IMG/VR virus record: IMGVR_UViG_3300048592_000721
Location: 1 to 59,644 of that record
Reading direction: 5' to 3' (one strand)
DNA length: 59,644 nucleotides
From: a virus
Taxonomy: Duplodnaviria > Caudoviricetes
Shown in pieces: positions 1,083 through 50,482 of this stretch (position 1 is its first letter; each line of letters opens with the position of its first letter). The notes under the pieces are model-generated. The model searched no databases. It was not told the DNA's origin and was given only the letters and a program-made list of their open reading frames with translations. Made by a program: the position numbers and the translations under genes.

Positions 1083-1230
1083 GCCGGGAGGAGGGGGATT
1101 CGGAATAGTGTGAGGAATCACGCTTAAAGCGAGAAGCCTTGCAAACTGCAAGGCTTCAATCGTCAGTGCGTGAACTCTGGCTTCACGCTGCCGCTCGCGC
1201 GTCACTTGCCGCGAGCAAAAAATTAGTATG

Positions 1231-1301
1231 AGCGGGGAGCAGGGATCGAACCTGCGCCTACTCGTTGGAAACGAGTCGTCCTACCACTGGACGACCCCCG
1301 C
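1231..1301 (-). tRNA. tRNA-Gly (TCC)
   Basis: Cloverleaf GCGGGGG/TCCCCGC, anticodon arm ACTCG-TTTCCAA-CGAGT, T-arm GGTTCGATCCC. CCA is not encoded. Confidence 0.93.
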
Positions 1302-1351
1302 ATAAATCAATTATAGCACGGCTGTTCTGTTTTGGGTTTATAATTCCATGC

Positions 1352-7005: not shown

Positions 7006-8580
7006 ATGGCAGATACATTTTTCTCAAAACTTTGGAGAGCAACCATGAAAGGTTACAACGCTTTCCGCGCCTCTTATCTGGGCACGGATCAGGTCAACTT
7101 GCAAAACTTTGGCAACTTCGACGCGCGGAAGGTACGTTACTCATTGCTGTGGGCAATGTATGAAAACACGGCATACGATGAATTGCACAAGTGGTCAAAG
7201 TCGTACAAGGACAGCTACGGGCTTTATAACTTTATCCGCGCAATTTACAACCCGACCTACCGCATTGGCGAATTTTGGAAGAGTCACCTATGGGGCGGCT
7301 CACTCGATACTTTAGCGGGCGATGGAAAAACGATTCCCTCTGCGCTGCCAATCCTTACCGACAATGAAAGCCTGCGCCCGGCTATCGCGCAGATCTGGCA
7401 GTGGTCGAATTGGGAGATTCGCAAAGACATCTACTCGCTGTGGGGAACGGTCTTCGGGGATGGGTTTATCAAAGTCGTTGACGATCCAGATTTGAAAAAG
7501 GTGTACCTGTCCATCGTCCACCCTTCGCAGATCGCCGATTTGATTACAGACGCATGGGGCAACGTCAAGGGGTATGTGATCGAGTACGAGCGCGAAGATC
7601 CAAAAGAAAATCCGATGAAATTAACCGAGCAACCGAAGATGGTGACTTACCGCGAGGTCGCCTACCGTGATGGTCAAAGTGTGAGGTATGAAACGTATCT
7701 CAATAATGACCTGTACGCATGGAATGGCAAAGAAGCCGAGTGGGATGTGTCGCTGGGCTTTGTACCGCTGGTATTCATGAAGCACAATGATGTGGGGCTG
7801 GATTTTGGCTGGAGCGAGATCCACGCAGGGCTGCCGAAATTCCGTGAGGTGGATGATCAAGCCTCGAAACTCAATGACCAAATCCGCAAGGTGGTTGAAG
7901 GGGCGGGAATCATGGCGGGAGTCAATAAGCCGACGCCTGACGAACAAGAGCAAATGGAACTCGAAGCGCGAAAACTTGGCAGGGATGAAGCGCCGATGTA
8001 CTGGACAACAAACACGGATGCGAAGTACATCCCTTTGGTTGCGCCGTTGGATATTGCCCAGGTTGCCGCGAACATTCAGAACCTGCTCAAAGAACTGGAA
8101 CGCGATTACCCTGAATTGAACAGCGACATTCACAATATCACTGGCGATATATCGGGACGCGCCCTGCGCTTGAACCGCGCTCCCATCGAGGATAAGGTCA
8201 TGCAACGCCGACCCAACTACGATAATGCGTTGGTTCGCGCTCAAAAGATGGCGCTGTCCATCGGCGGGATGCGCGGCTACGATAACTTCAAGGGAATCAC
8301 TCTCGATAGTTTCCAAAAAGGCAATCTGGATCATTCCATTGGAGCGCGTCCAGTATTTGCCAAAGACCCGCTCGATGATCTCGAAGTCCAATCCGCGTTT
8401 TGGGCGGCTGCGGCTCAGGCAAAGAGCGCGGGGATGCCCTTGGAATCTTTTCTCGAAGAAAACGGTTGGACGAAGGATCGCATTTCCAAAGTGACCAAGA
8501 AAGTCGATGAGAACCGTAAGAAATTTGCCGCTGAAACGGACTTCTTCAACGACGACCAGAACAATCAAAATAACGAATAG
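7006..8580 (+). CDS. portal protein
   Basis: 524 aa directly after TerL. GTVFGDGFIK, GFVPLV and ISGRALR segments are typical of SPP1-like portals. Confidence 0.82.
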   Translation: MADTFFSKLWRATMKGYNAFRASYLGTDQVNLQNFGNFDARKVRYSLLWAMYENTAYDELHKWSKSYKDSYGLYNFIRAIYNPTYRIGEFWKSHLWGGSLDTLAGDGKTIPSALPILTDNESLRPAIAQIWQWSNWEIRKDIYSLWGTVFGDGFIKVVDDPDLKKVYLSIVHPSQIADLITDAWGNVKGYVIEYEREDPKENPMKLTEQPKMVTYREVAYRDGQSVRYETYLNNDLYAWNGKEAEWDVSLGFVPLVFMKHNDVGLDFGWSEIHAGLPKFREVDDQASKLNDQIRKVVEGAGIMAGVNKPTPDEQEQMELEARKLGRDEAPMYWTTNTDAKYIPLVAPLDIAQVAANIQNLLKELERDYPELNSDIHNITGDISGRALRLNRAPIEDKVMQRRPNYDNALVRAQKMALSIGGMRGYDNFKGITLDSFQKGNLDHSIGARPVFAKDPLDDLEVQSAFWAAAAQAKSAGMPLESFLEENGWTKDRISKVTKKVDENRKKFAAETDFFNDDQNNQNNE

Positions 8581-10446: not shown

Positions 10447-10695
10447 TTATAAGTAATCATCTGGGACTTTCCCTTCTTCAACTACAACAAATGCACCCAA
10501 CTCTTTTGTGTCATCCCCAATTACCCAAGTCACTTGGATAACCTTACCTTCCATTGCTGTGCTAGCAGTCGATGAATCGTCCAAAATAACTACATGATCT
10601 CCCACTCTAGGAATAGGTATCTTTTTATAGTCAAACCTAAAAGATTTTGTTCCATTTGCGTTAATGATGTCAAAGGAAGTTGTTTTTTTTGTCAT
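10447..10695 (-). CDS. hypothetical protein
   Basis: 82-aa ORF coupled to the RM gene stop. Confidence 0.6.
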   Translation of the reverse strand: MTKKTTSFDIINANGTKSFRFDYKKIPIPRVGDHVVILDDSSTASTAMEGKVIQVTWVIGDDTKELGAFVVVEEGKVPDDYL

Positions 10696-13600
10696 TATTC
10701 TTTTCCTTCCACAATCTTGACTTCTTCCTCACTCAACCCATACAACTCATACACCAACTCATCAATAGCGGACTCCTCCTTGGACGTATCCGCCTGCGGA
10801 TTCCCTCTCTTCGCCGCCAATATTTGATCTACCAGTTTGACGAAAGGTTTTTGCTTCTCGTCAGAAATTCTCCGAACGGGAATCTCTGAAAGTGGCTTTT
10901 GGTATAGTTCGAGCATTTCCCCTTTTCTTTTACCCCGATTATAGAGCCAAAGAAAATAAAGCTTTGAATTCAACAATGCCAAAATATATTTAAGGGATAC
11001 AGACGTGTCTTTTTGTGTAATGAAATATACGTCTGCACTTGCATACCAAGGTATTTCGTTATATCCAAATGTGTTTGCATAACTTCTTTGTGGCGCAACG
11101 ATTTTTGGAGTAGTGAAATCAAACTCTTTTCTTGCAGATGAGAGAGCCCACCACTTTCCTAAATTCTTTGCTTTGCTCAACTCACCACTTTCGTAGTTTC
11201 TGGATTTTATGATCGACTCGAATCTTGACAGGTGTTTATAAACATTTTTATGCTTCGGGAGATCTGTGTCTGTGGTAACTTGAATAACCCATTTGGTGTT
11301 TCGGGTGCTCGTATAAAATTTTCCTATGTCAGAATTTTTGAACCAGGGTTTTATAATTACTTTGTCGTCAAGCCTTTTTGCGGTAGCGCTATCAATGACA
11401 TAAACACCCTCGCCGTTGGTTATCTGTAATTTTGGGTGCTTTTCAAAATGCTTTTTGGATATTTTATCTATGCCAGTAACTATACCTTGGCTTATGTGGC
11501 ACAAAATTCCGAGATCTCTATAATCAACTTGCATTTTCTGCAAAATATTTTGAGTGGTATTGCTGGCATCTACTCCATTTGAATTGCTTGTTCTTATATA
11601 GTTTTGCGTACCATCGTACAAGTCAGATTGCTTTACGCTTGAGTAATTAGTTTGGCTATCTGTTTTATTTAATATTGAGTGTAATTCATCGGGGGTTACA
11701 GTTCCTGTGCGATTAGTTGACACTATTTCGCAAAGACTATTTGCTTGTGGTTTTGTTAGCATTGTTATTAAGTTGTGTTGACCCGTTGCTGATTCGAATA
11801 CAGTTATTTCTCCTAAATTTACAAGTTTAGAAATAGAGACTCGACTCTTGAAGTCAGTTCTTAATTTCACAGCACTATCTGCAGTTGAATAGTAATTCGT
11901 TGTAATAAAAATAATTGTAGAATTTTTCCCACTCAAATCAATAGCCTTATGGAAAAAATAGTAAAAAAGATCCATTCTTTCATTGTTAAATCTTTTCCCT
12001 AAAGATGTTTCCTTCATTCTTCTAAAGAATTCTTTTTGCCCACCTTTATGACCAACATATGGCGGGTTTGCAATTAGTATGTCAAACCCATTTTTGTCAT
12101 GAAAGACTTCAGAGAAATAAATGTCAAAGTCGAATTGTGCATGTCCGTTTGTTATCTGTTCAATCAAACCATCAATCTTCTTTTTGTACTCCTGCTTTTT
12201 AGTAGGGTTAGTCACGTTGAAGTATAAAGGTTTCAAGGACTCAAGTTTGGCGAATAAATGTGCGTTGAACAAATTCTTTTCAACCCCAACTAATGAATTG
12301 CCACACACAACCTTATAGTCCAAGTTGGGCAAAGGCTTGATGTTTTGCGGGTCGTCTTCATCTACCACCAACGAGAGCCACAGGCGTAGTTTGGCAATTT
12401 CCACTGCGCCTGAGTCAATATCTACACCGTAGAGCGAGTTTTCAATACACTCGCGTTTGAAGTCATACACTGTCTTTTTGATTTTCGACCATGTTTTCAG
12501 CACATTCCGCGCACGTACGATCTCGCTCATCATGCCCACGGGGAACGCACCGCTGCCCACCGCAGGGTCACATACTTTGATGTTCGCCAGTTTTTCATCG
12601 ATCAATGCCGCGTTCTTGCGGATGGATTCAGCAATAATGGGGGAATAGGTTCCAGTTTCTTTGTTAGCGGCTTGGGCTTCGTGTTCGCGTAAATCTTCAC
12701 CGTGCTGAATCAGCAAAGCAATTGCTTCCTTTGTAGGCAACTCCGCTGGTTGAGTAGGACGAGTGCTCTTCTCGTCCGTATCGAAACCAGCAGTGGGGTT
12801 TAGCTCCGTGTGCAGGTAATTGATCAAGCTCTGCTGGCACATGTAATGCACGATCTCGCGCGGGGTGTAATACACGCCATACTGCTTGTTGAACTTGCTC
12901 TCTTCGCCCTTTTTGCCGCTCTCCAATGCCTTTAGGAATTCCCCATAATTGTCGGGGCGGATGGCGTTGAACTTTTCGTATGCCTTGCCGAGCAGTTCGG
13001 GGTCGATTGCCACTTCTTTTTCGAAAGGCTCATCTTCCTTCACCGTAAAGTTATAGCGGTCAAAGATGTCCAGAATGCCGTCGCCCGTATCGCCTTCATC
13101 GGTCTTATTTTTATTCGAGAACAACTCGTTGGAAAGCAGAATTTCCGTCTTGACCCAATCGTAATTATTCATGGGGTCGAACAGTCCGCCGTTCAGGAAG
13201 GGGATCTTGCAATCGAAGAGCCTGTAATAATGGTCATCGTGACTGCGATCCATGCGCAGGGCGTCATAAAACAGAGGTTCAAGGATGTCGTTGAAGAAGT
13301 TCTTGTAATCGCCGTGCTTCTTCTCGAACAGTTCGCGCAAAAAGTTCTTCGAGCCGTCGCCCCATGCCGCCTCGGTGGGTACGCCGAACCAGCCCTTCTT
13401 TTGCAGGTAATACAAAAAGACGATCTGCCCCAGCAGTTTCTTGGCAAGGTTCACCGTGTCGATGTCCTTACTCCTGAAATCGGCTTTTGTCTTCGCGTTT
13501 TTATCAATCGTCTTATCCAGTTCATCCTTTGTCCAAATGAACAACCCGCGATACTTCTCGAAGAACTCCTTCGTCACCTTCTCGATGTTGAAGGCTTCCT

Positions 13601-14159
13601 CCAATTGCGCCAGCGTCGGGTTCTTATCGGTATCTGCCATCATCGGCACGAACTGCTTCTGCGCCGTGTGACTCTTTTCATGACTCCCCACCAGGAATGA
13701 CCAGCGCCTCGCAGGTGTAAACTCATCTTTGACCTTGATCTGCCCCTCGTCATTCGCCTCCAGCTTAACCTCCAGCTTGACCAGCGAAAAACGCCAATCC
13801 TCCCCGTTGGGCGCTACAAAAGCCACCAGAGCGGCTTTCCTGTCTTTTCTGCTCAAATACTTCGCAATGAAATTTCTCTGCATGGTGCGGGCGCGGTCAA
13901 CCGACCCATCCCGCCTCAAATGGACGATCAACACATCGATCTCATCTTCGCCGTCCGAATACTTCGCCACCCGCTCGAACAGGCTCACATGCTTATCGAA
14001 GTCATCGAAAATCAAGTTACCCTTGTATGAAAAGGTCGCGGTCGCGCTAAAATCCGCCTCATTCAACAAAGACTTGATGAACTTGATATACCCAGCCTTA
14101 TCAAACTTCGACTGGAACGTATCCTTAATAAGATCGATTGCCCATTGATTTTTATTCAT
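10695..14159 (-). CDS. type IIG (Eco57I-like) restriction-modification enzyme with TaqI-C-like TRD
   Basis: LNGGLF, GVYYTP, DPAVGSGAF (motif I), ANPPY (motif IV) and C-terminal LALLNSKL/IDELVYELYGL. Confidence 0.88.
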   Translation of the reverse strand: MNKNQWAIDLIKDTFQSKFDKAGYIKFIKSLLNEADFSATATFSYKGNLIFDDFDKHVSLFERVAKYSDGEDEIDVLIVHLRRDGSVDRARTMQRNFIAKYLSRKDRKAALVAFVAPNGEDWRFSLVKLEVKLEANDEGQIKVKDEFTPARRWSFLVGSHEKSHTAQKQFVPMMADTDKNPTLAQLEEAFNIEKVTKEFFEKYRGLFIWTKDELDKTIDKNAKTKADFRSKDIDTVNLAKKLLGQIVFLYYLQKKGWFGVPTEAAWGDGSKNFLRELFEKKHGDYKNFFNDILEPLFYDALRMDRSHDDHYYRLFDCKIPFLNGGLFDPMNNYDWVKTEILLSNELFSNKNKTDEGDTGDGILDIFDRYNFTVKEDEPFEKEVAIDPELLGKAYEKFNAIRPDNYGEFLKALESGKKGEESKFNKQYGVYYTPREIVHYMCQQSLINYLHTELNPTAGFDTDEKSTRPTQPAELPTKEAIALLIQHGEDLREHEAQAANKETGTYSPIIAESIRKNAALIDEKLANIKVCDPAVGSGAFPVGMMSEIVRARNVLKTWSKIKKTVYDFKRECIENSLYGVDIDSGAVEIAKLRLWLSLVVDEDDPQNIKPLPNLDYKVVCGNSLVGVEKNLFNAHLFAKLESLKPLYFNVTNPTKKQEYKKKIDGLIEQITNGHAQFDFDIYFSEVFHDKNGFDILIANPPYVGHKGGQKEFFRRMKETSLGKRFNNERMDLFYYFFHKAIDLSGKNSTIIFITTNYYSTADSAVKLRTDFKSRVSISKLVNLGEITVFESATGQHNLITMLTKPQANSLCEIVSTNRTGTVTPDELHSILNKTDSQTNYSSVKQSDLYDGTQNYIRTSNSNGVDASNTTQNILQKMQVDYRDLGILCHISQGIVTGIDKISKKHFEKHPKLQITNGEGVYVIDSATAKRLDDKVIIKPWFKNSDIGKFYTSTRNTKWVIQVTTDTDLPKHKNVYKHLSRFESIIKSRNYESGELSKAKNLGKWWALSSARKEFDFTTPKIVAPQRSYANTFGYNEIPWYASADVYFITQKDTSVSLKYILALLNSKLYFLWLYNRGKRKGEMLELYQKPLSEIPVRRISDEKQKPFVKLVDQILAAKRGNPQADTSKEESAIDELVYELYGLSEEEVKIVEGKE

Positions 14160-14173
14160 AAAATTTTCCCTTG

Positions 14174-17100
14174 TTACTTCAAATACATACTCAAAATAAC
14201 TTCACGCTTCCCCGCTGACCTCGGGTTCTCGTCCACATAATGACTTCCCAACAGCCCTGCGGGGATCGTCATTCGCAGCAGTCCCAACACTTTCAGCGGA
14301 GATGTCCAATCTGAGTTATTGGCATTCAAAGCCTTAAGCGTGGCTTTAATGGTTTGTTTGGGTAAACCGCCCACTTTCAATTTCTCGATAATGGCTTGCA
14401 CAACGGCTTCCTGTTCCTCAGTTAATTGCTTGGTGTTTTTGAATACCGCCATAAGGATTCGCAAGACTTTCTCGTCACTGCCTCTGCCTTTGCGGGTTTG
14501 CAGTGTCATCGCTTCCTCGGTGGTCGCTGCAATGAAGGCATCCTTGTTCTTATCCAGCAGGTCGTAATACGCTTCCGAGACCTTTTCTCTCTTCTCGTCA
14601 GGCGTACACGCCAGCGTCTCCGCAGCTGCGATCAAATCAAGCTCCCATGCATCAAGATTATCGCCAGCGATAAAGAACTTCTGCACCTTCCCCTTGCGGA
14701 AATATGTAATTAGTGAATTTTGCAAGGATGGGTTGCTCTTGCCTGAACGCGCTTTTCTTGGCAGGTACTTAATCTTCTCGAACAAATCCTCATCGTTGTC
14801 GCGAATATCTTTAATGATTTTCAGGTACTTCAATTCGCTGGTTTCCGAACCATCTTCGCCAGTGATCGTTTTTTTGGAAATCAAACGGTCAAATAATTCA
14901 TGCGACCCAACAGGCTCTCCCTCGGTTAACAGCGCAGCGTCTCCGCCCAACAGCGAAAGGAAAGCGTTGATCTTTGCCTCTGCCGCTTCCTTGAGCCCGA
15001 TCTCGTTATTGGCTTGTGTAGTGGGAAAGAAGTTGAAGGTATAGATCGTGTCAAACTTCGTATCCACACGGTTGATACGTCCCACACGCTGCATCATGCG
15101 CGTCGGGTTCCACGGGATGTCGTAATTAATCACCACGTTGGAACGGTGCAGGTTCACGCCTTCCGAGAGAACTTCCGTGGCAACTAGAATGCGGTAATCA
15201 TTCCTCGGGTTCTTCGCCTTTGCATCGAAATTCTTGATGATGGTCTCGCGCACCCCTTCGCCTGACCCGCCCGAAAAACAAACTGCCTGATCTTTATGCG
15301 CCTTGTTGATATTCAGTGTCAGGTATTCCGCCGTCTCTTTTGATTCGGTGAACAGGATGATCTTGTTTTCCTTCAATAGCTTATTCTTTGAAAGCTGCTT
15401 CAACAGCGCCAATAGTTTGGGGTCGCGTTCCACGGTATCCCAAAGCTTTTTCACTTTCCTGAGAATGGCAAGGTCGCTCTTGAGGTAGGTCAGTAGTTCA
15501 GGGCGGAATTCACTGCTCTTGTACTTCTCCGCCTTGCCTTCTTCGATCAGGTGTTCCACTGCATCATCATTATCATTGTCGAGATATTCGAATATTTTAT
15601 AAGTATGCTTCTTGCTGGTGTAAACATTGCCCTTTTCAAACTCCCTGATGAATAGTTCATAAGAGTGAATGAACCTGCTAATGGAATTACGGAAGGCAAA
15701 GAAACTGCTTTCCAGCCGTTTGATGAGCAATATCTTCATGAACTTTCCCATGTTCCTTTGGGATTGTTCTTCCAGTTGGTCGAGCGGCTTTTTCAAATAC
15801 AGCAGGGGCGTGTAACGCGCATACTTGAATTCCTGTGAGAGCAATTCCATTGTCGCGTTGAAGACCTTGTCCTCTTCATCGTTCAATTCATAGTAAAGAG
15901 GCTCTGGCGCGGCAACATCTGGAAAGCGCAGTCCCTGTTTCTTCATGTCCTTGCCGAAGAAGTCAATAATCTCCGCGCGGGTACGGCGCACCATCAGGTA
16001 TTTCAAGACCTTTTCGCGAATTTCCTTTGAGTTTGAGCGTACCGTAGCGAGATAGTCTTCATAATCCGCCTGTCGATCCAGATCGGTCAGGTTCTTTGCC
16101 AGCCCCTTGAAGAAGTCTTCAATATCAGGCATATTGGGAATCGTGCTTTTCTTCGAGTTCTGGAAAAGCTTAATCTCGCTCAAAATGTCCCACGGTGAGT
16201 TGTTGTATGGTGTTGCAGTTACGAGAATAACGCGCTTGTTACGGCAAATTTCCGCCAGCATTTCATACGTGCGGTTGCCTTCATTGCGGAAGCGGTGCGC
16301 TTCATCAATGATGACGTTCTTGTATTTATCGGTGTCGCGTTCAAGCAAATCTTCCAGCTTACCGATGGATTCGAAATCCGCTGCAACTCTGAAATCAGAG
16401 AAAGCGTTCGGCCACGAACCAGGGTTATCTCTGTCCAAAAGCACAGGCGGCGCAATAACTAATGTCCTGCCATCCAACTGTCCAGCCAGCAACGTGGCAA
16501 TGTACGTCTTACCCAAACCTACCACATCAGAAATAAAGACACCGCCGTATTCTTCAACGATCTTCTTGGCGTTCAGAACTGCCTGTTCCTGATATTCAAG
16601 TCTCATGAAGTTTTCAGGCGTGTAATTGACAAATACCTCATCGGTCTGGTTTAGTTCGTCCTTGAAATATTCGTACAAGAGTTTCAAGTAAAGTTCGTAC
16701 GGGCTGATATCCTGACTAAGCCATGTTTTGGTTTCGATGGTTTCAATATATTTATCGCTGATGTCAACCGCGTCCAGCCATAGTTGCTCGAACTTATCAC
16801 GCGCGAATTTATGGTCTGCGGCATTCTTGAGTTCCACATTGAATTCAAGGTTTTCCACCAATCCAGATTGTGTCAGGTTGCTTGAACCAGTAATCACCCG
16901 CCCTGTATCTCTGTCACCTTCCTTGAAGGTCACAATATAAACCTTCGCGTGAATATTTTGCGAAGGATATACCTTTATTTCCAGTTTCCCGCTTTTGATC
17001 CATTCAATGAACTTTGCAACACCCAATTCAATGTTTTTGCTGTCCAGTGAATCTTCCAATTCCTTGGTCAGTTGATTAACAAATAAATCTTTGGCTTCCT

Positions 17101-17362
17101 TGCGGGATGGGTCAGCCAGTTCAAGCTGCTTTTCCACTTTTGCTGTTTGAAACAAATCAAAGGTACTTTTATCCGTGCTAATTCCCACCAGAATTCTGAT
17201 CTTCTCCGTGCCTTCAAGCGATTGATAAATGGCATAAAACCCGCTTGTGTAAAAATAACCCGACAATACATCGAAAAAACGGGCATCCCTGATAAGGACA
17301 TTGAATCTGTCCTTTAGGCTTTGTCCGTTCTCGTTCGTAATGAAAGTGAGATCTGTGGTCAT
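14174..17362 (-). CDS. PLD-domain nuclease fused to SNF2/DEAD-type helicase
   Basis: HAKVY...GSSN PLD motif, DVVGLGKT Walker A, DEAH, TATP and QRVGRINR. Confidence 0.88.
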   Translation of the reverse strand: MTTDLTFITNENGQSLKDRFNVLIRDARFFDVLSGYFYTSGFYAIYQSLEGTEKIRILVGISTDKSTFDLFQTAKVEKQLELADPSRKEAKDLFVNQLTKELEDSLDSKNIELGVAKFIEWIKSGKLEIKVYPSQNIHAKVYIVTFKEGDRDTGRVITGSSNLTQSGLVENLEFNVELKNAADHKFARDKFEQLWLDAVDISDKYIETIETKTWLSQDISPYELYLKLLYEYFKDELNQTDEVFVNYTPENFMRLEYQEQAVLNAKKIVEEYGGVFISDVVGLGKTYIATLLAGQLDGRTLVIAPPVLLDRDNPGSWPNAFSDFRVAADFESIGKLEDLLERDTDKYKNVIIDEAHRFRNEGNRTYEMLAEICRNKRVILVTATPYNNSPWDILSEIKLFQNSKKSTIPNMPDIEDFFKGLAKNLTDLDRQADYEDYLATVRSNSKEIREKVLKYLMVRRTRAEIIDFFGKDMKKQGLRFPDVAAPEPLYYELNDEEDKVFNATMELLSQEFKYARYTPLLYLKKPLDQLEEQSQRNMGKFMKILLIKRLESSFFAFRNSISRFIHSYELFIREFEKGNVYTSKKHTYKIFEYLDNDNDDAVEHLIEEGKAEKYKSSEFRPELLTYLKSDLAILRKVKKLWDTVERDPKLLALLKQLSKNKLLKENKIILFTESKETAEYLTLNINKAHKDQAVCFSGGSGEGVRETIIKNFDAKAKNPRNDYRILVATEVLSEGVNLHRSNVVINYDIPWNPTRMMQRVGRINRVDTKFDTIYTFNFFPTTQANNEIGLKEAAEAKINAFLSLLGGDAALLTEGEPVGSHELFDRLISKKTITGEDGSETSELKYLKIIKDIRDNDEDLFEKIKYLPRKARSGKSNPSLQNSLITYFRKGKVQKFFIAGDNLDAWELDLIAAAETLACTPDEKREKVSEAYYDLLDKNKDAFIAATTEEAMTLQTRKGRGSDEKVLRILMAVFKNTKQLTEEQEAVVQAIIEKLKVGGLPKQTIKATLKALNANNSDWTSPLKVLGLLRMTIPAGLLGSHYVDENPRSAGKREVILSMYLK

Positions 17363-17390
17363 TATCAACCTTTATTTTTTCTATAAACGC

Positions 17391-35373: not shown

Positions 35374-35453
35374 GGACTTTCTCCTTATTGGAAACAGAGT
35401 ATTTTCTTATCCAGATAAGTGTTCAGAAAAAGAAAAATCCCGCCGAAGCGGGA

Positions 35454-40365: not shown

Positions 40366-40886
40366 GGGATTATCTGGTAAATGACAAAACACACCGCGCC
40401 GACAATCATCAAGAAAACGGGAATGGATACCAATTTTCCTTTTTTATCAATTGCCGCTCCTACTGATGCGACTACCCAAAATGCAATCATTGTAAGCACA
40501 ACGTACATATAATATTTTCTGCCCTGCCACCACGCCGACCAGTCAGTGGTTATGGCTGCCATTGAAATTATCAAAACAAAAAACAAACCGATTCCAATGG
40601 AGAGCCACTTTGCCCACGACGGGTCTGGTTCGCTCATTGCTTTTCTTGAATCGCTCAAAGCATTCATGTATTCTTTGTCGGTCATGGGGGGAGGGGACGG
40701 TATTCTGTCCAGCAAGGAAAATATTCCCCTATCAATCAAGTCTTCCAGACCGCCAAACAGAAACCATTTCATGAACAATAAAAAGATGATGATTGTCACA
40801 GGAATTAGAAAGAACACCTGATAGGGTTCGTTCCAGCCTTCTTCTATGGGGAGCATAATATTGAGAAGTGCATAAATCTTTTCCAT
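40362..40886 (-). CDS. integral membrane protein
   Basis: Four hydrophobic segments. Confidence 0.65.
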   Translation of the reverse strand: MEKIYALLNIMLPIEEGWNEPYQVFFLIPVTIIIFLLFMKWFLFGGLEDLIDRGIFSLLDRIPSPPPMTDKEYMNALSDSRKAMSEPDPSWAKWLSIGIGLFFVLIISMAAITTDWSAWWQGRKYYMYVVLTMIAFWVVASVGAAIDKKGKLVSIPVFLMIVGAVCFVIYQIIP

Positions 40887-40904
40887 TGTTTTGTTTTCCC
40901 TTGA

Positions 40905-41218
40905 TTAGGTTCTTACTTCAACAATGTTGATTCCGTAAATCGCTTCGACAAGTTTTTTCTTGAGTCTAAACACAGGAGTTGCCATCCCCTTAACGTCCTC
41001 CACGACACGAGTCCCGTGCGGTCTGTGTACTGAAAGTCTGCGATATATTTGCCCACCTTCTTGCCGTTGACGATAAGCGGAAAAACTGGTTGTAGGGCTA
41101 GGTTGAAAATTTCTCCAGCCCTTTCAGCCAGGATAAGTTCAGAGTACCGATGTGCTTCTGCCTTGCTTTCGAAAACAAAGCCGTCAACTTCTGTTTTTTT
41201 TGCGCCGTATTTGGACAT
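40905..41218 (-). pseudogene. DUF1064 PD-(D/E)xK endonuclease, frameshifted
   Basis: SKYGAKKTEVDG..F.SK.EA.RY and YIADF. The VVEDVKG...FRLKKKL C-terminus continues in another frame from about 41015. Confidence 0.75.
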
Positions 41219-41224
41219 AGTATT

Positions 41225-41997
41225 TTTTTACTCTGATAAGCGGATATGTTCTCGACCTGAGCGGTTCACGAGCCGCCCAGGTCTTTGAGGAGGGAACACC
41301 ATGCGTACACCACATACGCAGTTTGTTCGGGAGGCTCCCGCGCCGCAGGACTTACGGCGCGGGGTGAATTTGCCTCCCAAGAGCAGATGACTGGACTTGA
41401 ACCAGTGACCTCCGAATTACGAGTTCGGTGCGCTGCCAACTGCGCCACATCCGCGTGATGCAGGATGAAGGGAGCCTATCCTGCATAGATCAAGCCTCTT
41501 AACAATAAAGTGGAGTCCGAGGCGTTGATTTCAAAAAAGTGAGTGATCCAGCCTTTGGCACTTTGCCACATCCCTGAACAATTTGCCGCTTTCGCGGAAG
41601 TCTGCATTTTTACTGTCAGGCACTCACTATTATTCGAAATTTGGAAGCCGCGCCGCTCTTATGGTTTGAGCGGAACCATTGCTCACCGCTCGCGACTTCC
41701 TGCAATTAGAGATTCGAGATAAAGGCTGGCGAAGTTCTGCGTGACAAGGCTTGCCTTGATGACACGCACCGGACTTTGTCTTTCACGGCTTCCGATTGTG
41801 CCGACCAGCATTTTTCCATCGAGCCTGTTACTCATTACCGTGGGTTCAGGCGCGCGCGAGTCTCTCTGCTCGATGGACTATGAAACGGGCGGCTGACTTG
41901 AACAGCACCTGCATCCATCCCATGAGTTCAGGACAAGACCATGACTCACTGGGCGACCCGTAACATTCGATTTTCAAGGTGATCCACGCCGCCCCAT
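41225..41997 (-). ncRNA. candidate large structured ncRNA containing tRNA-Thr
   Basis: No convincing ORF. Continuous series of long-stem domains. Begins right after a TGAACACTT motif copy. Confidence 0.5.
41382..41454 (-). tRNA. tRNA-Thr (CGT)
   Basis: GCGGATG/CATCTGC acceptor, CCGAA-CTCGTAA-TTCGG anticodon arm and GGTTCAAGTCC T-arm. Confidence 0.92.
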
Positions 41998-42034
41998 GTT
42001 TTCTTACCCAGATAAGTGTTCAAGAAACAAAAAA

Positions 42035-43396
42035 TCAACCTGTATATGCGGCATCCCTGAAAGTCGTGAATTTTTTTAGGTATTTCAGGTTTACGCTTCC
42101 GGTTGGACCGTCGCGGCGCTTGGCTACGATGCACTCGGTGTAATCCTTTTTGCCGTACTGATCGAGATATAGAAAGATGACTGTATTTGCATCCTGCTCG
42201 ATTCCGCTGGAATCTTTTAGGTCCGCAAGTGTTGGGCGTTTTTCTGTCCGTTGCTCCACGCTGCGATTAAGCTGAGCGGCAGAGATAACCGGGATGTCAA
42301 GTTCACGAGCAAGAAGTTTGTTCTGGCGTGATATGTGACCAACTTCCAATGCGCGGTTGGCGAAATTTCCACCACCGGACATCAATTGAAGGTAGTCTAC
42401 GATTACAAGGTCAAGACCATATTCACGCTGGATTTGCAAGCACTTTGCCCGAAGCGTGACTGGTGTAAGGTTGCTGATATCTGACAGGAATATTTGCCCT
42501 CTGTTTTCGTACAGTTCAATAGTTTCGTTAAAGCGGATCCACTCTTCACTGTCAAGACCGCCAGTCTTGATTTTTGTAGTTTCGATCATCGCTTCCTGAG
42601 AGATAAACCTTCTCACAACCTCTTCGCCGTTCATTTCCAGTGAGAAGATCGCGACATTTTTTCTTTGCTTCAAAACATTGTGCCTAGCAACGTCGAACAA
42701 AAACGAGGTTTTTCCTTGTCCAGGTGGTCCAGCAACGACAATATTTTCCTGGTTTTCCAATCCAAGAAGTAGCAGGTCAAGGTCGAGTAGCCCTGTCTTA
42801 ATTCCAGTGATAATTGATTCGCCTTTGGCGGTTCGCTCGGCATTGCTGGCGGCGCGGTCATATACTGCCGATATGCACGTTTTGAAAAAATCCTTGTCAT
42901 TACCTTTACTGGTCGAAATCGAAATAATCTCGCGGCTGGCTTCTTCTATCGCTTCCTCCGCTGAGAGCGTCGCTTTATAGGACAGGCTGGCTATCTTATT
43001 CGCTGCTGACAACAACTTGCGCCGAACCGAGTGACCTTCGACGATGCGCCCGTAGGATTCCGCATTCAGCGAAGACGGAACCTGGTTGATAAGCGAGGTC
43101 AGGTATGCCGACCCGCCAGCCTCCGCCAGTTGATTGACCCTTTCCATTTCCTCGGATACGGTCAGCAAATCAACGGACATCCGCTTTTCGTTGAGCCTGT
43201 CATAAGCCTGCCATACCCACTTATTGCGCTCGATGTAAAAATCATTGGCTGAAAGGAATTGCGCGATGTCGTAATAAACATCAGGGTTGATCAGCACTGC
43301 GCCGACTACTGCTTCTTCGGCTTCGCGGCTGTGCGGAACAGTCGTGCTCGTCATCTCTTCGACTTTTTCTTCTGGTGGGTAAAGTTCGTCGCTCAT
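42035..43396 (-). CDS. dnaB: replicative DNA helicase
   Basis: PHS.EAEEAVVG, GPPGQGKT, IVDYLQLM, AQLNR and IEQDA. Confidence 0.95.
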   Translation of the reverse strand: MSDELYPPEEKVEEMTSTTVPHSREAEEAVVGAVLINPDVYYDIAQFLSANDFYIERNKWVWQAYDRLNEKRMSVDLLTVSEEMERVNQLAEAGGSAYLTSLINQVPSSLNAESYGRIVEGHSVRRKLLSAANKIASLSYKATLSAEEAIEEASREIISISTSKGNDKDFFKTCISAVYDRAASNAERTAKGESIITGIKTGLLDLDLLLLGLENQENIVVAGPPGQGKTSFLFDVARHNVLKQRKNVAIFSLEMNGEEVVRRFISQEAMIETTKIKTGGLDSEEWIRFNETIELYENRGQIFLSDISNLTPVTLRAKCLQIQREYGLDLVIVDYLQLMSGGGNFANRALEVGHISRQNKLLARELDIPVISAAQLNRSVEQRTEKRPTLADLKDSSGIEQDANTVIFLYLDQYGKKDYTECIVAKRRDGPTGSVNLKYLKKFTTFRDAAYTG

Positions 43397-47207: not shown

Positions 47208-47900
47208 TTAGGTAAACGACGGGGAGAGTCCAAGCGTGGTTAACTGCTTTGCGATATTCTTGATTGCCGAGGAAACTGCCTGGTCGGATTTCTGCAACTT
47301 GTGAGCAATCTCGCGCTGGTTATGACCGAACGAAAGCATGGAGATAATCATCTGATATTCTTTGGGGAGAGCCGACAACTTCTGCATGATTTCGGCGACC
47401 TGCTCGCGGTGTATAAACTCTTCTTCGGCTGAGGACGACGGATAGGCGGTCATTTCAAATTCTTCGTTTTCCGCATCATGGATTTTTGTAAGCATGGCGG
47501 ATTCGTCTTCCATCATCATCGAATAGGCTCGGTACTTACGCACACAGGCTTTTGCCGCCCACATTGCGCGTGTGAGGATTCGAGAGTCTGAATCATCTGG
47601 CTTACATTTTGTCAGGATTTCTTCGACCATTGCCGCGTAAATATCGTCAGACTCAAGCGGGTCGTTGGCGTATGACCGCGCTTTGACTTGCAGTTTATTT
47701 TCAAGGTCGGCAATGCGTTTCGCGAGTTCAGGGTAGAGCGATGGAGGATTAATGACAATAATTCGTTTCCCGCCGCTTGGCACATGTGCTTTGCGGCATT
47801 CTTTACAGATACGTTGGTGTCCTGGTCCGCGTCGGTGATACTCGGTCAGCGATTTCTCGACTTTGCACTTCTTGCATTTTTGTGTGGTGTTTTCGGTCAT
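47208..47900 (-). CDS. sigma-70-family factor with N-terminal zinc finger
   Basis: CKKC...CKEC, region-2-like ARSY..D..SDD, and region-4 LPKEYQ...NQREIAHKL HTH. Confidence 0.75.
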   Translation of the reverse strand: MTENTTQKCKKCKVEKSLTEYHRRGPGHQRICKECRKAHVPSGGKRIIVINPPSLYPELAKRIADLENKLQVKARSYANDPLESDDIYAAMVEEILTKCKPDDSDSRILTRAMWAAKACVRKYRAYSMMMEDESAMLTKIHDAENEEFEMTAYPSSSAEEEFIHREQVAEIMQKLSALPKEYQMIISMLSFGHNQREIAHKLQKSDQAVSSAIKNIAKQLTTLGLSPSFT

Positions 47901-47940
47901 GGTGTCACTCCTTTTAGTTTTTTTCGGAAGTTGCATTCCG

Positions 47941-48753: not shown

Positions 48754-48792
48754 GGTGCCCCAGCCAGGAGTCGAACCCGGAACCTACTGTTA
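48754..48792 (-). other. attP: attP core: 3' half of a tRNA gene
   Basis: Minus strand ...ACAGT-AGGTT-CCGGG-TTCGACT-CCTGG-CTGGGGC-A-CC, overlapping the integrase stop codon. Confidence 0.8.
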
Positions 48793-49653
48793 TGGGTTCA
48801 GCTTTTCAGTTTTTGGTAGGTTTGCTATGGGTAAATATTGCCGAATCGCGTCTTCGGTGATGTTTCGGGTGTAACGATCCACCATTTCCAGATTTGACCA
48901 ACGCCCTGCCACCATAAGAGTTTTAGACGGTGCGCCGAGCAAAGTAGAGATCGTGGCAAACGTGCGTCTGGCATCGTGTGGAGAGAATTCAAAGCCGACC
49001 TTCCTGCTCCATTTGCGGAATATCATTTTGATTCCGTGTCCAGTGAGAGGTTGTCCGTTGTTCCTGTTGTTTAGAAGATTCACAAAAAGAGTATCGACAC
49101 CTTTGGCAGGTTTGCGAAATTCCAACCACGATGCTATATAAAAAGCGGTCTGTTGTGAGTATGCTCCAGTCCCCCATTGCCCTCCCTTTACAACTACTTG
49201 AAGGTTAAGTTTTTCGAGGTTCACGTCATCGAGCTTAAGCCTTGCCAGTTCTGCGCGACGGAGTCCTGTGTCTATGGCTATGGCGAGAATTGCAAGGTCA
49301 CGTGATCCAATCGCAGTGGAAGTATCAAATGATGCAAGCAACTCGACCAGTTGATCCATAGTCAGGGCGCGCTGCTTTTTAGGGTGAACGCGCTTGATCC
49401 GAGCCGACAGCGCTGGATGGACTTGACCATATCTCCAAGAAATAAATGAGCGACAAGCGCAGAGGGCAACATATTGTTGCGTGTTCTGCTGAGGATTCCC
49501 TTTGATATTTGCTTTTACAAATGACAGTAGGTCGGATGCTGTCCAAGATGGAAGGTCTTCGACTACTAGTTTTTCCAAGGTGCGGCGATACGAAACCTTT
49601 GTGGATTCGCTGTATTCTCCCGATGCAAGAAAGTCTTCTACGAGTGTTCCCAT
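48790..49653 (-). CDS. int: tyrosine integrase
   Basis: TGLRRAEL (R), VKGG (K), HDARR (HxxR), GRW and RYT (Y). GAGGA RBS before MGTLV. Confidence 0.9.
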   Translation of the reverse strand: MGTLVEDFLASGEYSESTKVSYRRTLEKLVVEDLPSWTASDLLSFVKANIKGNPQQNTQQYVALCACRSFISWRYGQVHPALSARIKRVHPKKQRALTMDQLVELLASFDTSTAIGSRDLAILAIAIDTGLRRAELARLKLDDVNLEKLNLQVVVKGGQWGTGAYSQQTAFYIASWLEFRKPAKGVDTLFVNLLNNRNNGQPLTGHGIKMIFRKWSRKVGFEFSPHDARRTFATISTLLGAPSKTLMVAGRWSNLEMVDRYTRNITEDAIRQYLPIANLPKTEKLNP

Positions 49654-49666
49654 TTTGTCCTCTATG

Positions 49667-50482
49667 TTAGTGGTGTTGTTGTGTTCGCAGGGGATTTTCG
49701 TAGCCGACAGGCAGGTATTTTTGTAGGTCTTTCTTGACGTAATGCCTGACACCGAGAGATTGACATAGGTCAATCATCCTCAATGTGTAATCGCGCCAGT
49801 CCGTCGTTCTGGTGATGTCGAGATAATTCACGCGACCTATTTTATACAGGTCAACGAATTCGTGTGTAGATTTGACAATTTCCAAGCTGGCTTCAACGTT
49901 GATTGTCGGTTCGAGGGATACCCAAGTGAAAATCCCGTGCTCGTGGAACTTTTTCAGAGCGGCAATTCTATCACCTGGGAGCGCTGCTCCACGTTCCCAT
50001 TTTCGGGAGAAGTCGTCATCGAGACTGGTCAGCGTCGAGGCAAAGGCGTCGCGGTCGGGACGGAATAAATCAATATCGCGCAAGGCGCGGGTTCCGCCTT
50101 TGGTAAGGGTGCATACGCCAAGTCCATTTTCCTGCAGGACCTCAATTGCCCAACGCGTAAGAGAATTGTCGCCGGGGTGATACGGGTCCGTGGTAAACGA
50201 CAACATCACTTGTTCGGTGATTCCAGCCCGCTTGTATTTCAAAGCATCGAGAATCAATTTGCCAATAAAACCTTTGCGTGGGACAGCGCCAGCGTCGAAT
50301 TCTTTCCGCGTCATTGTTCCATGGAAAACACGCGGAACATAGCAGTATGCACACTTGTGCCCACAGCCTCTATATGGGTTTGCGGCGAGCGGAGCGTATT
50401 CGCCAGCCTGTCCTTGGGGGGCGTAAATATACTTACAGCCCTTGATTGAAATGCCATCGGGATTTACGGTAATTTTATCCAT
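49667..50482 (-). CDS. radical SAM protein (SPL-like)
   Basis: NPYRGCGHKCAYCY (CxxxCxxC), TTDPY and WVSLEP. Confidence 0.85.
   Translation of the reverse strand: MDKITVNPDGISIKGCKYIYAPQGQAGEYAPLAANPYRGCGHKCAYCYVPRVFHGTMTRKEFDAGAVPRKGFIGKLILDALKYKRAGITEQVMLSFTTDPYHPGDNSLTRWAIEVLQENGLGVCTLTKGGTRALRDIDLFRPDRDAFASTLTSLDDDFSRKWERGAALPGDRIAALKKFHEHGIFTWVSLEPTINVEASLEIVKSTHEFVDLYKIGRVNYLDITRTTDWRDYTLRMIDLCQSLGVRHYVKKDLQKYLPVGYENPLRTQQHH

What the first reader, a model, noticed from the sequence alone, without database searches (positions are those of the whole stretch)
41225..41997. ~770-nt ornate non-coding region with embedded tRNA (GOLLD/ROOL-like candidate)
Seen: consecutive domains closed by stems, including GACCTG/CAGGTC, GGGAGGC..CCCGCGCCG/CGGCGCGGG..GCCTCCC, tRNA-Thr, ATGCAGGAT/ATCCTGCAT and AGTGAGTG/CACTCACT. 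Further stems are GGAAG/CTTCC with alternative CCGCTC/GAGCGG and ATGGTT/AACCAT pairings (pseudoknot or switch), GCTGG/CCAGC and TCCATCGAGC/GCTCGATGGA. There is no credible ORF in an otherwise gene-dense arm. Established: GOLLD and ROOL are large phage ncRNAs associated with tRNAs. Inference: a divergent member or a new class of large RNA.
Basis: partly seen in the sequence, partly recalled or inferred. Interest (0 to 1): 0.8.

Follow-up and report, generated by a model that had tools for sequence, protein, structure and literature searches.

The report
Structured RNA modules flanking a phage tRNA
The largest gene-free stretch of this phage genome holds a threonine tRNA gene flanked on both sides by conserved RNA hairpin modules; it is a real, apparently undescribed structured RNA region, but it is not a member of the giant GOLLD or ROOL RNA families.

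Summary
The 816-nt gap (41219-42034) is the largest ORF-free stretch of a complete 59.6-kb phage genome. Everything here is on the minus strand: dnaB, the gap, tRNA-Thr(CGU) at 41381-41454, then a DUF1064 gene.

Rfam 15 finds only the tRNA, with no GOLLD, ROOL or other family even at E<=10.

One IMG/VR relative (L003, DnaB 65% identical) has the same dnaB / tRNA-Thr / DUF1064 layout and 77% identity over 41280-41702. The hairpins are kept through compensatory changes: 13 double changes against 0-5 in slid controls. Wobble pairs fit only the minus strand.

Contigs from four public runs hold closer relatives, and their similarity ends at about 41809-41814. One lacks domain B exactly, another replaces it, and L003 lacks domain Z.

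The 5' third (41815-41995) is not conserved, and the wider 41703-42034 stretch folds no better than shuffles (z -1.2). No long-range helix is conserved.

A recurrent promoter/operator-like motif sits just upstream and, unlike most of its other copies, has no ORF behind it.

Best reading: a co-transcribed pre-tRNA with modular structured leader and trailer, a new variant of phage tRNA-linked ncRNA of unknown function. Interest is moderate.

The parts
42035..43396 (-). dnaB replicative helicase gene, upstream neighbour
   Evidence: Pfam DnaB_C at E 1.2e-79 and DnaB at E 1.7e-27. The closest named homologues are Chloroflexota/Anaerolineae MAG proteins.
41998..42022 (-). Copy of a recurrent promoter/operator-like motif (TGAACACTTA + n3-5 + GGATAAGAAAATA-like), placed just after the dnaB stop codon
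   Evidence: There are 12 copies with at most 1 mismatch to the 10-mer, 11 of them on the minus strand. Sixteen matches at up to 2 mismatches compare with 4.8 expected, and 0 of 100 shuffles reach that. By my reading, 8 of the 11 minus copies have an ORF start 29-51 nt downstream. This copy has only a 7-codon frame behind it. The same motif follows dnaB in L003.
41815..41997 (-). Variable, window-specific spacer, including the 10-bp inverted repeat hairpin at 41815-41877
   Evidence: It is absent from L003. The relatives in the runs diverge at 41809-41814. Fold z is -0.66 for 41881-41995 and -2.99 for 41815-41880. There is no significant Pfam or PHROG match.
41725..41809 (-). Module Z: GCUGG/CCAGC stem enclosing two hairpins
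   Evidence: Contigs of runs X1, X2 and X20 cover it at about 88-93% likeness. It is absent from L003. Fold z is only -1.39. Its structure is not tested by covariation.
41643..41700 (-). Module A: a 10-bp stem (GGAAGUCGCG/CGCGGCUUCC) enclosing two overlapping 6-bp helices, AUGGUU/AACCAU and CCGCUC/GAGCGG (pseudoknot or switch)
   Evidence: Fold z is -3.30. Against L003, each of the three helices has one double compensatory change, and the outer stem has 2 wobble-compatible single changes. Run variants 41695 A>G and 41692 G>A keep the pairs.
41538..41629 (-). Module B: an 8-bp closing stem (AGUGAGUG/CACUCACU) with a branched interior. This module is optional.
   Evidence: Inverted repeat I5. 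The inner stem CCUGA/UCAGG becomes CACGG/CCGUG in L003, which is 3 double changes. It is deleted in the X2 contig (skips 41535-39, with 1 nt between) and replaced by 133 other letters in the X1 contig.
41489..41529 (-). Module C: a hairpin with a roughly 20-nt loop that is nearly invariant between the window and L003
   Evidence: GCCUC/GAGGC becomes GCCAC/GUGGC in L003. The loop is conserved. Fold z for C+D is -3.92.
41458..41486 (-). Module D: a 9-bp hairpin ending 3 nt before the tRNA 5' end
   Evidence: Inverted repeat I9 is 100% complementary. One A-U to G-C double change against L003. The loop varies in the runs.
41381..41454 (-). tRNA-Thr, anticodon CGU
   Evidence: ARAGORN. Rfam RF00005 at 68.8 bits, E 6e-13. 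The same tRNA sits at the same place in L003.
41329..41378 (-). Module E: a two-tier hairpin (7 bp, internal loop, 11 bp) starting 3 nt after the tRNA, with the invariant loop UAAGUCCUG
   Evidence: Fold z is -6.49. There are 4 double compensatory changes against L003 while the loop is unchanged. X1 variant 41329 G>A gives a G-U pair in the minus sense.
41302..41320 (-). Module F: a 6-bp hairpin with the conserved loop (U)GUGGUG
   Evidence: The stem is entirely different in L003 (CCAGA/UCUGG) with the same loop. The X2 and X3 contigs carry 41304 C>A together with 41318 G>T, which is compensatory.
41284..41301 (-). Conserved single-stranded stretch GUGUUCCCYCYUSAAA between F and G
   Evidence: Alignment A5.
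41254..41283 (-). Module G: an 11-bp GC-rich hairpin with no U-tract after it
   Evidence: L003 has a 13-bp hairpin of different sequence at the same place. X1 variant 41260 A>G turns a minus-sense G-U pair into G-C. No minus-strand terminator-like site was called in 40800-42200.
41216..41239 (-). 24 nt identical in the window and L003, ending in the DUF1064 start codon. It resembles the 3' half of the promoter/operator-like motif, and there is no Shine-Dalgarno sequence.
   Evidence: Model R1 aligns it to the motif copy at 35395-35414. Runs X1 and X3 differ at 41232 and 41233.
40913..41218 (-). DUF1064 gene, downstream neighbour. It looks frameshifted in the window.
   Evidence: Pfam DUF1064 at E 4.6e-16 covers residues 1-66 only. 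The C-terminal part matching L003's 108-aa protein lies in another frame, ORF 40905-41003.

Best explanation
The gap is a minus-strand transcription unit or intercistronic stretch of the phage's replication and early-gene arm. In it, a functional tRNA-Thr(CGU) is embedded between a modular, structured leader (modules Z, A, B, C, D) and a structured trailer (E, F, G).

**Shown here**
- The region is non-coding.
- The hairpin modules are conserved as structures through compensatory changes.
- The pairing fits the transcribed (minus) strand.
- Modules B and Z can be lost whole.
- No canonical terminator separates dnaB, the tRNA and the DUF1064 gene.
- A recurrent promoter/operator-like motif, which elsewhere precedes genes, sits at the 5' end of the region.

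**Inferred**
- The stretch is transcribed from or through that motif.
- RNase P and 3'-end nucleases cut out the tRNA.
- Hairpins D (3 nt before the tRNA) and E (3 nt after it) cap the new RNA ends. This would stabilise the released leader and the downstream mRNA.
- The released leader (about 230-360 nt) and trailer (about 130 nt) persist as stable RNAs or cis-elements. Their sequence-conserved loops (the C loop, UAAGUCCUG in E, GUGGUG in F) would be recognition sites for a protein or RNA partner that is still unknown.

It works like a phage tRNA-linked non-coding RNA. It is not a member of GOLLD or ROOL.
For: **Context**
- The window is a complete phage genome with direct terminal repeats.
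- The gap is its largest ORF-free stretch.
- All neighbouring genes and the tRNA are on the minus strand.

**Conservation**
- L003 has the same order: replication organiser, dnaB, gap with tRNA-Thr(CGU), DUF1064, FtsK-like gene.
- L003 is 77% identical over 41280-41702.

**Structure**
- Independent MFE folds of the two sequences give the same series of modules.
- In my hand-curated helices, 76 aligned pairs in 12 helices split as 61 unchanged, 2 one-sided compatible, 13 double compensatory and 0 broken. Hairpins F and G are re-made from different sequence (curated, so biased towards pairing).
- With the window's own MFE as the only structure, on a structure-blind MAFFT alignment, 13 pairs changed on both sides against 0-5 in six slid controls. 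None of 500 shuffles reached 13 (mean 6.5).

**Strand**
- Six G-U cells and no A-C cells occur in the curated minus-sense helices.
- Run variants 41329 G>A, 41692 G>A and 41260 A>G make or resolve G-U pairs only in the minus sense.
- Whole-gap z is -6.36 on the minus strand against -4.05 on the plus strand.

**Modularity**
- B is deleted in X2 and replaced in X1.
- Z is absent in L003.

**Promoter/operator-like motif**
-.
- The phage encodes a protein with a sigma-70 region 4 domain.

**Terminators**
- No minus-strand terminator-like site lies in 40800-42200. Other intergenic regions of this phage show a hairpin followed by a U-tract.

**Weak hint of RNA**
- A 305-nt contig of a metatranscriptome run covers 41533-41808 of a relative. 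The tool warns that DNA can be present in such libraries.
Against: - There is no direct evidence of a transcript, of its ends, or of processing. Contigs cannot show these.
- Only two full-length sequences exist, so the covariation counts are not a proper statistic. The tool itself warns that related sequences can beat every shuffle.
- The run variant tables were truncated: 52 substitution rows and 10 indel rows were not shown.
- Per-module fold z-scores do not clearly favour the minus strand. Z, B and F+G score better on the plus strand.
- Module Z has no covariation test, and its z is -1.39.
- The promoter reading of the motif is inferred. The motif could instead be an operator or a transcription-blocking site.
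- Sequence-conserved loops and the overlapping covarying helices in module A hint at more than simple end-capping.
Confidence: 0.55

Rival explanations
1. A new class of large, trans-acting, possibly self-assembling phage RNA. It would be analogous to GOLLD, where tRNAs can sit in a disordered linker between a variable 5' region and a conserved 3' region. The modules would fold together, for example through a kiss between GGACU in the C loop and AGUCC in the E loop, clamped around the tRNA.
For: - The phage context, the embedded tRNA, the variable 5' part and the conserved 3' part parallel what passages of PMC12286853 say of GOLLD.
- Loop sequences are conserved while stems covary.
- Module A has two overlapping helices that each covary.
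- The C and E loops are complementary over 5 nt in both sequences.
Against: - No Rfam GOLLD or ROOL hit even at E<=10.
- No conserved long-range helix (helices 1, 5 and 13).
- Whole modules are dispensable.
- The 3' part is three simple hairpins of about 130 nt in all. It is not a roughly 400-nt multi-junction domain.
- The 5-nt loop complementarity is invariant, so it is untested, and it is expected by chance fairly often.
Confidence: 0.15
2. An ordinary intergenic regulatory region: a tRNA gene plus terminator, attenuator and promoter hairpins that act only in cis on transcription of the downstream genes. No RNA product of its own would be made.
For: - Hairpin G followed by a motif-like 24-mer and the start codon follows the 'hairpin, motif, start' pattern of other intergenic regions.
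- There is no terminator, so read-through into DUF1064 is likely.
Against: - None of E, F or G has a U-tract, although this phage's other terminators do.
- About 250-360 nt of conserved, covarying leader modules upstream of the tRNA are not explained by termination.
- The loops are conserved in sequence.
Confidence: 0.15
3. The phage replication origin or a single-strand initiation (primosome) site. The hairpins would form in DNA next to the replication genes.
For: - It lies directly downstream of the replication-organiser-like gene and dnaB.
- It is the largest non-coding stretch.
- It has many inverted repeats.
- Fold z is also negative on the plus strand.
Against: - No iterons or tandem repeats in the gap.
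- It is not AT-rich: GC is 0.516 for 41001-42000.
- The cumulative GC skew shows no turn there.
- Wobble pairs and run variants fit only the transcribed strand.
- More distant phages with related DnaB or organiser genes mostly lack such a gap after these genes. Of 26 loci checked, L003 has it and 7 others have gaps of 350 nt or more somewhere in the locus.
Confidence: 0.1
4. Decayed remnants of genes or of a former tRNA array, with no present function.
For: - The 5' third is unconserved, and 41881-41995 folds like shuffled sequence.
- A more distant phage (L006) has a 1.36-kb ORF-poor stretch with two tRNAs and a T-arm-like fragment.
Against: - Compensatory changes keep at least 10 hairpins.
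- ARAGORN and the Rfam tRNA model find only one tRNA in the gap.
- There are no protein-family matches.
- The 5-nt indel inside module B and the substitution pattern are not codon-like.
Confidence: 0.05

Closest known systems
GOLLD RNA (Rfam family; passages of PMC12286853 and PMC5737381 read)
   Same: - It is encoded in phages and prophages, often next to tRNAs.
- tRNAs are sometimes present inside the RNA, in its linker.
- The 5' part is less conserved and the 3' part is conserved.
- Its function is unknown.
   Different: - GOLLD members often exceed 800 nt and have a large multi-junction 3' domain.
- Here the conserved non-tRNA part is about 500 nt of local hairpin modules.
- The Rfam GOLLD model does not match even at E<=10.
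ROOL RNA (Rfam family; PMC5737381 passages)
   Same: It is a phage or prophage RNA near tRNAs, thought to be possibly co-transcribed with them.
   Different: [quoted passage not shown]
- Here no conserved long-range helix was found, and there is at most one candidate pseudoknot, in module A.
- There is no Rfam match.
Small stable RNAs co-transcribed with the tRNA cluster of phage T4 (recalled; not checked in a paper here, and the search did not surface one)
   Same: These are phage non-coding RNAs of unknown function. They are made from the same precursor as tRNAs and released by tRNA-processing nucleases.
   Different: Different phage group, different host and different sequences. Processing is not shown here.
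tRNA-mRNA co-transcripts and tRNA punctuation (E. coli tufB operon, mitochondrial transcripts; recalled)
   Same: The tRNA lies inside a longer transcript, so cutting it out would separate the upstream and downstream RNAs.
   Different: The long, conserved, covarying leader and trailer modules are not a feature of those systems.
Mycobacteriophage L5 stoperators and phage-specific early promoters (recalled). This comparison applies to the TGAACACTTA motif only.
   Same: It is a short asymmetric motif repeated in many short intergenic regions, in one orientation relative to transcription.
   Different: The sequence and the host phylum differ. Which protein binds it is unknown.

Membership tests
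GOLLD RNA (Rfam) | Match to the family covariance model (conserved 3' domain) | tested here: not met
   There is no GOLLD hit at gathering score on the whole window. There is none at E<=10 on 40900-42300, on 41455-41830 or on L003 6150-6800.
GOLLD RNA (Rfam) | Phage or prophage location near or around tRNAs | tested here: met
   The window is a complete phage genome and the tRNA-Thr is embedded in the region. This feature is contextual and does not define the family on its own.
GOLLD RNA (Rfam) | Size of about 800 nt with large multi-junction domains; homo-oligomeric cage | tested here: not met
   The conserved part is about 600 nt including the tRNA and is made of local modules. Oligomerisation cannot be tested with these tools.
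ROOL RNA (Rfam) | Match to the family covariance model | tested here: not met
   No ROOL hit.
ROOL RNA (Rfam) | [quoted passage not shown] | tested here: not met
   The modules are hairpins or small junctions. The long-range helices of the single-sequence fold are not conserved.
tRNA (RF00005) | Cloverleaf covariance model and anticodon | tested here: met
   68.8 bits against a gathering score of 29. ARAGORN calls Thr with anticodon CGU. This applies to 41381-41454 only. No second tRNA or tRNA-like hit lies in the gap.
Conserved structured RNA (generic criterion) | Helices kept by compensatory substitutions in homologues | tested here: met
   13 double changes against 0-5 in slid controls, and 0 of 500 shuffles reach 13. 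Only 2 full sequences are available, so this is not a formal significance test. Extra compensatory or wobble variants appear in run contigs.
Intrinsic terminator | GC-rich hairpin followed by a U-tract on the transcribed strand | tested here: not met
   No minus-strand site lies in 40800-42200.
Replication origin | Iterons or direct repeats, an AT-rich unwinding element, a skew turn | tested here: not met
   Searches show no repeat families beyond 2-copy short matches. GC is 0.516 and there is no skew turn. Function cannot be tested here.
Protein-coding gene or pseudogene | An open frame conserved in relatives, or a family match | tested here: not met
   The indels and the substitution pattern against L003 are not codon-like.

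The most novel reading that the evidence does not exclude
This could be a previously undescribed class of modular phage RNA, about 0.5-0.6 kb long, that carries a tRNA in its middle and is found in phages of Chloroflexota-like hosts. Its conserved loops would tie leader and trailer together around the tRNA, or bind a host factor. Possible roles include delivering the tRNA, shielding it, or timing its release. That would make it a functional analogue of the tRNA-in-linker arrangement of GOLLD that arose independently.
Probability: 0.15. Interest if true: 0.75.

Novelty: new variant of a known kind. Interest (0 to 1): 0.5.

Why it matters
Phage tRNA-linked non-coding RNAs such as GOLLD and ROOL are among the largest bacterial RNAs of unknown function. 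Why they travel with tRNAs is an open question.

This locus offers a smaller, modular example from a barely studied phage and host group. Whole modules are gained and lost between relatives, and the tRNA is tightly bracketed by covarying hairpins with invariant loops.

If the flanks prove to be stable, functional RNAs, they would give a tractable system for asking what structured RNA does next to phage tRNAs. If they are only processing and stability elements, the finding is a neat but ordinary case of operon architecture.

Tried and rejected
**Search for more homologues**
- blastn against 50,697 GenBank phage records matched only the tRNA part.
- A single-protein DnaB scan of IMG/VR found nothing.
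- The DnaB-profile scan of IMG/VR gave L003 as the only locus whose gap matches.
Its best locus was only 52% identical in DnaB, so it missed the 76-81% identical JGI proteins seen.
- Four motif scans of IMG/VR returned only L003's contig plus chance matches (checked by blastn).
- The organiser-protein scan gave only distant phages.
- Among 401 genomes sampled from the class of a Chloroflexota MAG, 111 matched at E<=0.001. All but two listed places lie inside the tRNA part (query positions 244-341). The other two are matches of 23 and 32 nt. The remaining 290 had no match.
- No public run holds more than 12% of the sampled words.

**L006 as a third member**
- By eye, its spacer and trailer around tRNA-Thr(UGU) show a similar order of elements.
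- MAFFT aligned only the tRNA.
- Model R1 did not hit it at E<=10.
- blastn gave only the tRNA plus matches at E of about 0.02-7.
- I kept it as a weak lead only.

**Other readings tested and dropped**
- Coding or pseudogene readings.
- Iterons.
- Long-range inverted repeats I1 and I11. They are not conserved in L003, and about 1-2 such 9-mers are expected by chance by my estimate.
- ACG codon usage is unremarkable: 160 of 669 Thr codons in 23 long ORFs.

**Run data that carry no weight**
- The parts of the stretch without cover in the runs, and the small word shares, are not used as evidence of absence or of habitat.

- Paper supplements were not opened. The supplement of PMC5737381 lists 224 motifs that I could not inspect. 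I relied on Rfam 15 to cover them.

**Literature**
- One search listed 7 papers (titles and abstract starts seen). None concerns tRNA-linked RNAs of Chloroflexota phages.
- One search listed 10 of 121 papers and did not surface a T4 stable-RNA paper. That comparison is recalled.
Full report
**What the window is.** The window is a complete IMG/VR phage genome of 59,644 bp with direct terminal repeats.
- It carries a terminase and a minor capsid protein.
- It carries a tyrosine integrase, a protein with a sigma-70 region 4 domain, ParB, RadC and methylases.
- It has two tRNAs: Gly-UCC at 1230-1301 and Thr-CGU at 41381-41454, both on the minus strand.
- The closest named DnaB homologues are from Chloroflexota/Anaerolineae MAGs, so the host is probably in that phylum.

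Between dnaB (42035-43396, minus) and a DUF1064 gene (40913-41218, minus) lies an 816-nt stretch with no ORF of 80 aa or more. It is the largest such stretch in the genome.
- Stop-to-stop frames have no significant Pfam or PHROG match.
- The substitution and indel pattern against a relative is not codon-like.
- The gap folds far better than shuffles: z -6.36 on the minus strand and -4.05 on the plus strand.
- That signal comes from 41455-41702 (z -4.6) and 41219-41380 (z -6.1).
- The 5' third, 41703-42034, has z -1.24, with 13 of 100 shuffles folding as well.

**It is not GOLLD or ROOL.** Rfam 15 (4227 families) reports only the two tRNAs at gathering score. With permissive filters and E<=10, only sub-threshold chance-level hits to unrelated families appear. 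This was run on 40900-42300, on 41455-41830, and on the relative's region. Passages of Kretsch et al. 2025 and Weinberg et al. 2017 give the family descriptions:

| Family | Size | Architecture |
|---|---|---|
| GOLLD | often over 800 nt | universally conserved 3' region; tRNAs sometimes in its linker |

The context resembles these families. The anatomy and the models do not.

**Relatives.** Only one IMG/VR contig is a clear relative: L003/L169/L278, with DnaB 65% identical.
- It has the same order: organiser-like gene, dnaB, gap, DUF1064, FtsK-like gene. The same tRNA-Thr(CGU) sits in a 537-nt gap.
- It shows 77% identity to window 41280-41702 and a 21-nt exact match before the DUF1064 start.
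- Its gap folds with z -6.0.
- It lacks window 41703-41995.

Contigs from four public runs of four studies hold closer relatives at about 88-94% likeness.
- X1 covers 41107-41536 and 41641-41814. It has 133 other letters in place of 41537-41640.
- X2 covers 41248-41534 and 41640-41809. It skips 41535-41639 with a single letter between.
- X3 covers 41216-41501 and 41548-41700.
- X20 is a metatranscriptome run. It has a 305-nt contig over 41533-41808 and a 237-nt contig over 41153-41246.
- Likeness ends at 41808-41814, which is the 5' edge of the GCUGG stem.

No other search added a member.

**Anatomy, in RNA sense (minus strand, 5' to 3').**
1. Promoter/operator-like motif, 42022-41998.
2. Variable spacer, 41997-41815.
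3. Module Z, 41809-41725.
4. Module A, 41700-41643: a 10-bp stem around two overlapping 6-bp helices.
5. Module B, 41629-41538: an 8-bp closing stem with a branched interior.
6. Hairpin C, 41529-41489: a nearly invariant loop of about 20 nt.
7. Hairpin D, 41486-41458.
8. tRNA-Thr, 41454-41381.
9. Two-tier hairpin E, 41378-41329: invariant loop UAAGUCCUG.
10. Hairpin F, 41320-41302: loop GUGGUG.
11. A conserved single strand.
12. Hairpin G, 41283-41254.
13. A 24-nt block identical in the window and L003 that ends in the DUF1064 start codon.

Independent MFE folds of the window and of L003 give the same series of modules.

**Covariation.** In hand-curated helices (tRNA excluded), 76 aligned pairs in 12 helices break down as follows:

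| Category | Pairs |
|---|---|
| Unchanged | 61 |
| One-sided compatible | 2 |
| Double compensatory | 13 |
| Broken | 0 |

F and G are hairpins of different sequence at the same place. Because that set was chosen by eye, I also used the window's own MFE as the only structure, on a structure-blind MAFFT alignment.
- 13 pairs changed on both sides, against 0, 1, 2, 2, 3 and 5 in the six slid controls.
- None of 500 shuffles reached 13 (mean 6.5).
- The tool warns that two related sequences can beat shuffles without structure, so this is support and not proof.
- The run contigs add a compensatory pair in F (41304 C>A with 41318 G>T, in X2 and X3).
- They also add wobble-type changes in A, E and G. 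Its tables were cut: 52 and 10 rows were not shown.
- The long-range helices of the single-sequence fold are not kept (helices 5 and 13: 75% and 67% paired). What is conserved is a chain of local modules.

**Strand.**
- The curated helices contain six G-U cells and no A-C cells in the minus sense.
- Three run variants create or resolve G-U pairs in the minus sense only.
- The whole-gap z favours the minus strand.
- Per-module z-scores are mixed.
- Together with the tRNA and the gene orientation, the RNA (or single strand) that folds is the transcribed one.

**Transcription context.** The 10-mer TGAACACTTA, followed by a GGATAAGAAAATA-like stretch, occurs 12 times with at most 1 mismatch. Eleven copies are on the minus strand, and the motif is enriched over shuffles.
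- By my reading, eight minus-strand copies sit 29-51 nt before an ORF start. They usually follow a hairpin with a U-tract and precede a GGAG-type ribosome site.
- The copy at 42022 follows the dnaB stop and has no ORF behind it.
- L003 has the motif at the same place, about 25 nt before module A.
- No minus-strand terminator-like site lies between dnaB and DUF1064.
- I infer that the region is transcribed with the early and replication genes, perhaps from its own start. This is not shown.

**Mechanism proposed.** The tRNA is excised by RNase P and 3' nucleases. D and E lie 3 nt from the tRNA ends and would cap the released RNAs. The leader and trailer would persist as stable RNAs or cis-elements, with their invariant loops as recognition sites.
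- Module A may be a pseudoknot or a switch. Each overlapping helix has one compensatory change. By my reasoning, loop lengths of 0, 1 and 2 nt make full simultaneous pairing sterically doubtful.
- A 5-nt complementarity between the C and E loops is noted but untested.

Rivals and their weights are given in the Rival explanations section. The origin reading is weakened by the lack of iterons, of AT-richness and of a skew turn, and by the strand-specific wobble pairs.

**Verdict.** The region is a real, conserved, modular structured RNA around a phage tRNA. It belongs to no Rfam family, has few accessible members, and its function is unknown. Interest is moderate.

Noticed in passing
window 31710, 33444, 35425, 35972, 36903, 42022, 44808, 46336, 50500, 54050, 56001 (minus strand) and 47995 (plus strand): A recurrent intergenic motif, TGAACACTTA + n3-5 + GGATAAGAAAATA. 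It mostly lies between a terminator-like hairpin and a ribosome site. The single plus-strand copy abuts a TATAAT box 7 nt before an ATG, which could be a leaderless regulator gene at a divergent switch region. The phage also has a protein with a sigma-70 region 4 domain (47208-47936). The motif may be a phage-specific promoter or a stoperator-like operator.
   Followed up: partly
window 40905-41218 (minus strand): The DUF1064 gene looks frameshifted. Residues after about 66 do not match the family, and the conserved C-terminus (VEDVKG...) continues in another frame (ORF 40905-41003), unlike L003's intact 108-aa gene. This could be a real frameshift or an assembly error.
   Followed up: partly
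L006 7086-8452: A more distant phage (DnaB 41% identical) has a 1.36-kb ORF-poor stretch after dnaB plus one gene. It holds tRNA-Met, tRNA-Thr(UGU), a copy of the TGAACAC..GGATAAGAA motif and a T-arm-like fragment. Fold z is -4.67 for 7086-7908 and -2.44 for 7982-8274. By eye its layout recalls the window's, but neither the CM nor blastn confirms homology.
   Followed up: partly
window 10695-17368 (minus strand): A low-GC island (GC 0.35-0.47) holds a 1154-aa Eco57I/MmeI-like methyltransferase and a 1064-aa PLD-nuclease plus SNF2/DEAD helicase fusion. This looks like a restriction or defence-type cassette carried by the phage.
   Followed up: no
window 1265-2734 (plus strand) and 1230-1301 (minus strand): A phage DAM-like plus GNAT-like fusion protein. 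The start of its listed ORF overlaps tRNA-Gly(UCC) on the other strand, so the true start is probably further downstream.
   Followed up: no
window 41998-42022 and 35402-35437; L169 440-475: A 35-nt near-repeat (89% identical) of the motif region occurs at two places about 6.6-7.6 kb apart, in both the window and its relative.
   Followed up: yes
window 48790-50482 (minus strand): A tyrosine integrase lies next to a radical-SAM protein, about 7 kb from the tRNA-Thr. No evidence was found that the tRNA is the attachment site. The sampled host-class genomes match the tRNA at no more than 80% identity over 60-80 nt.
   Followed up: partly
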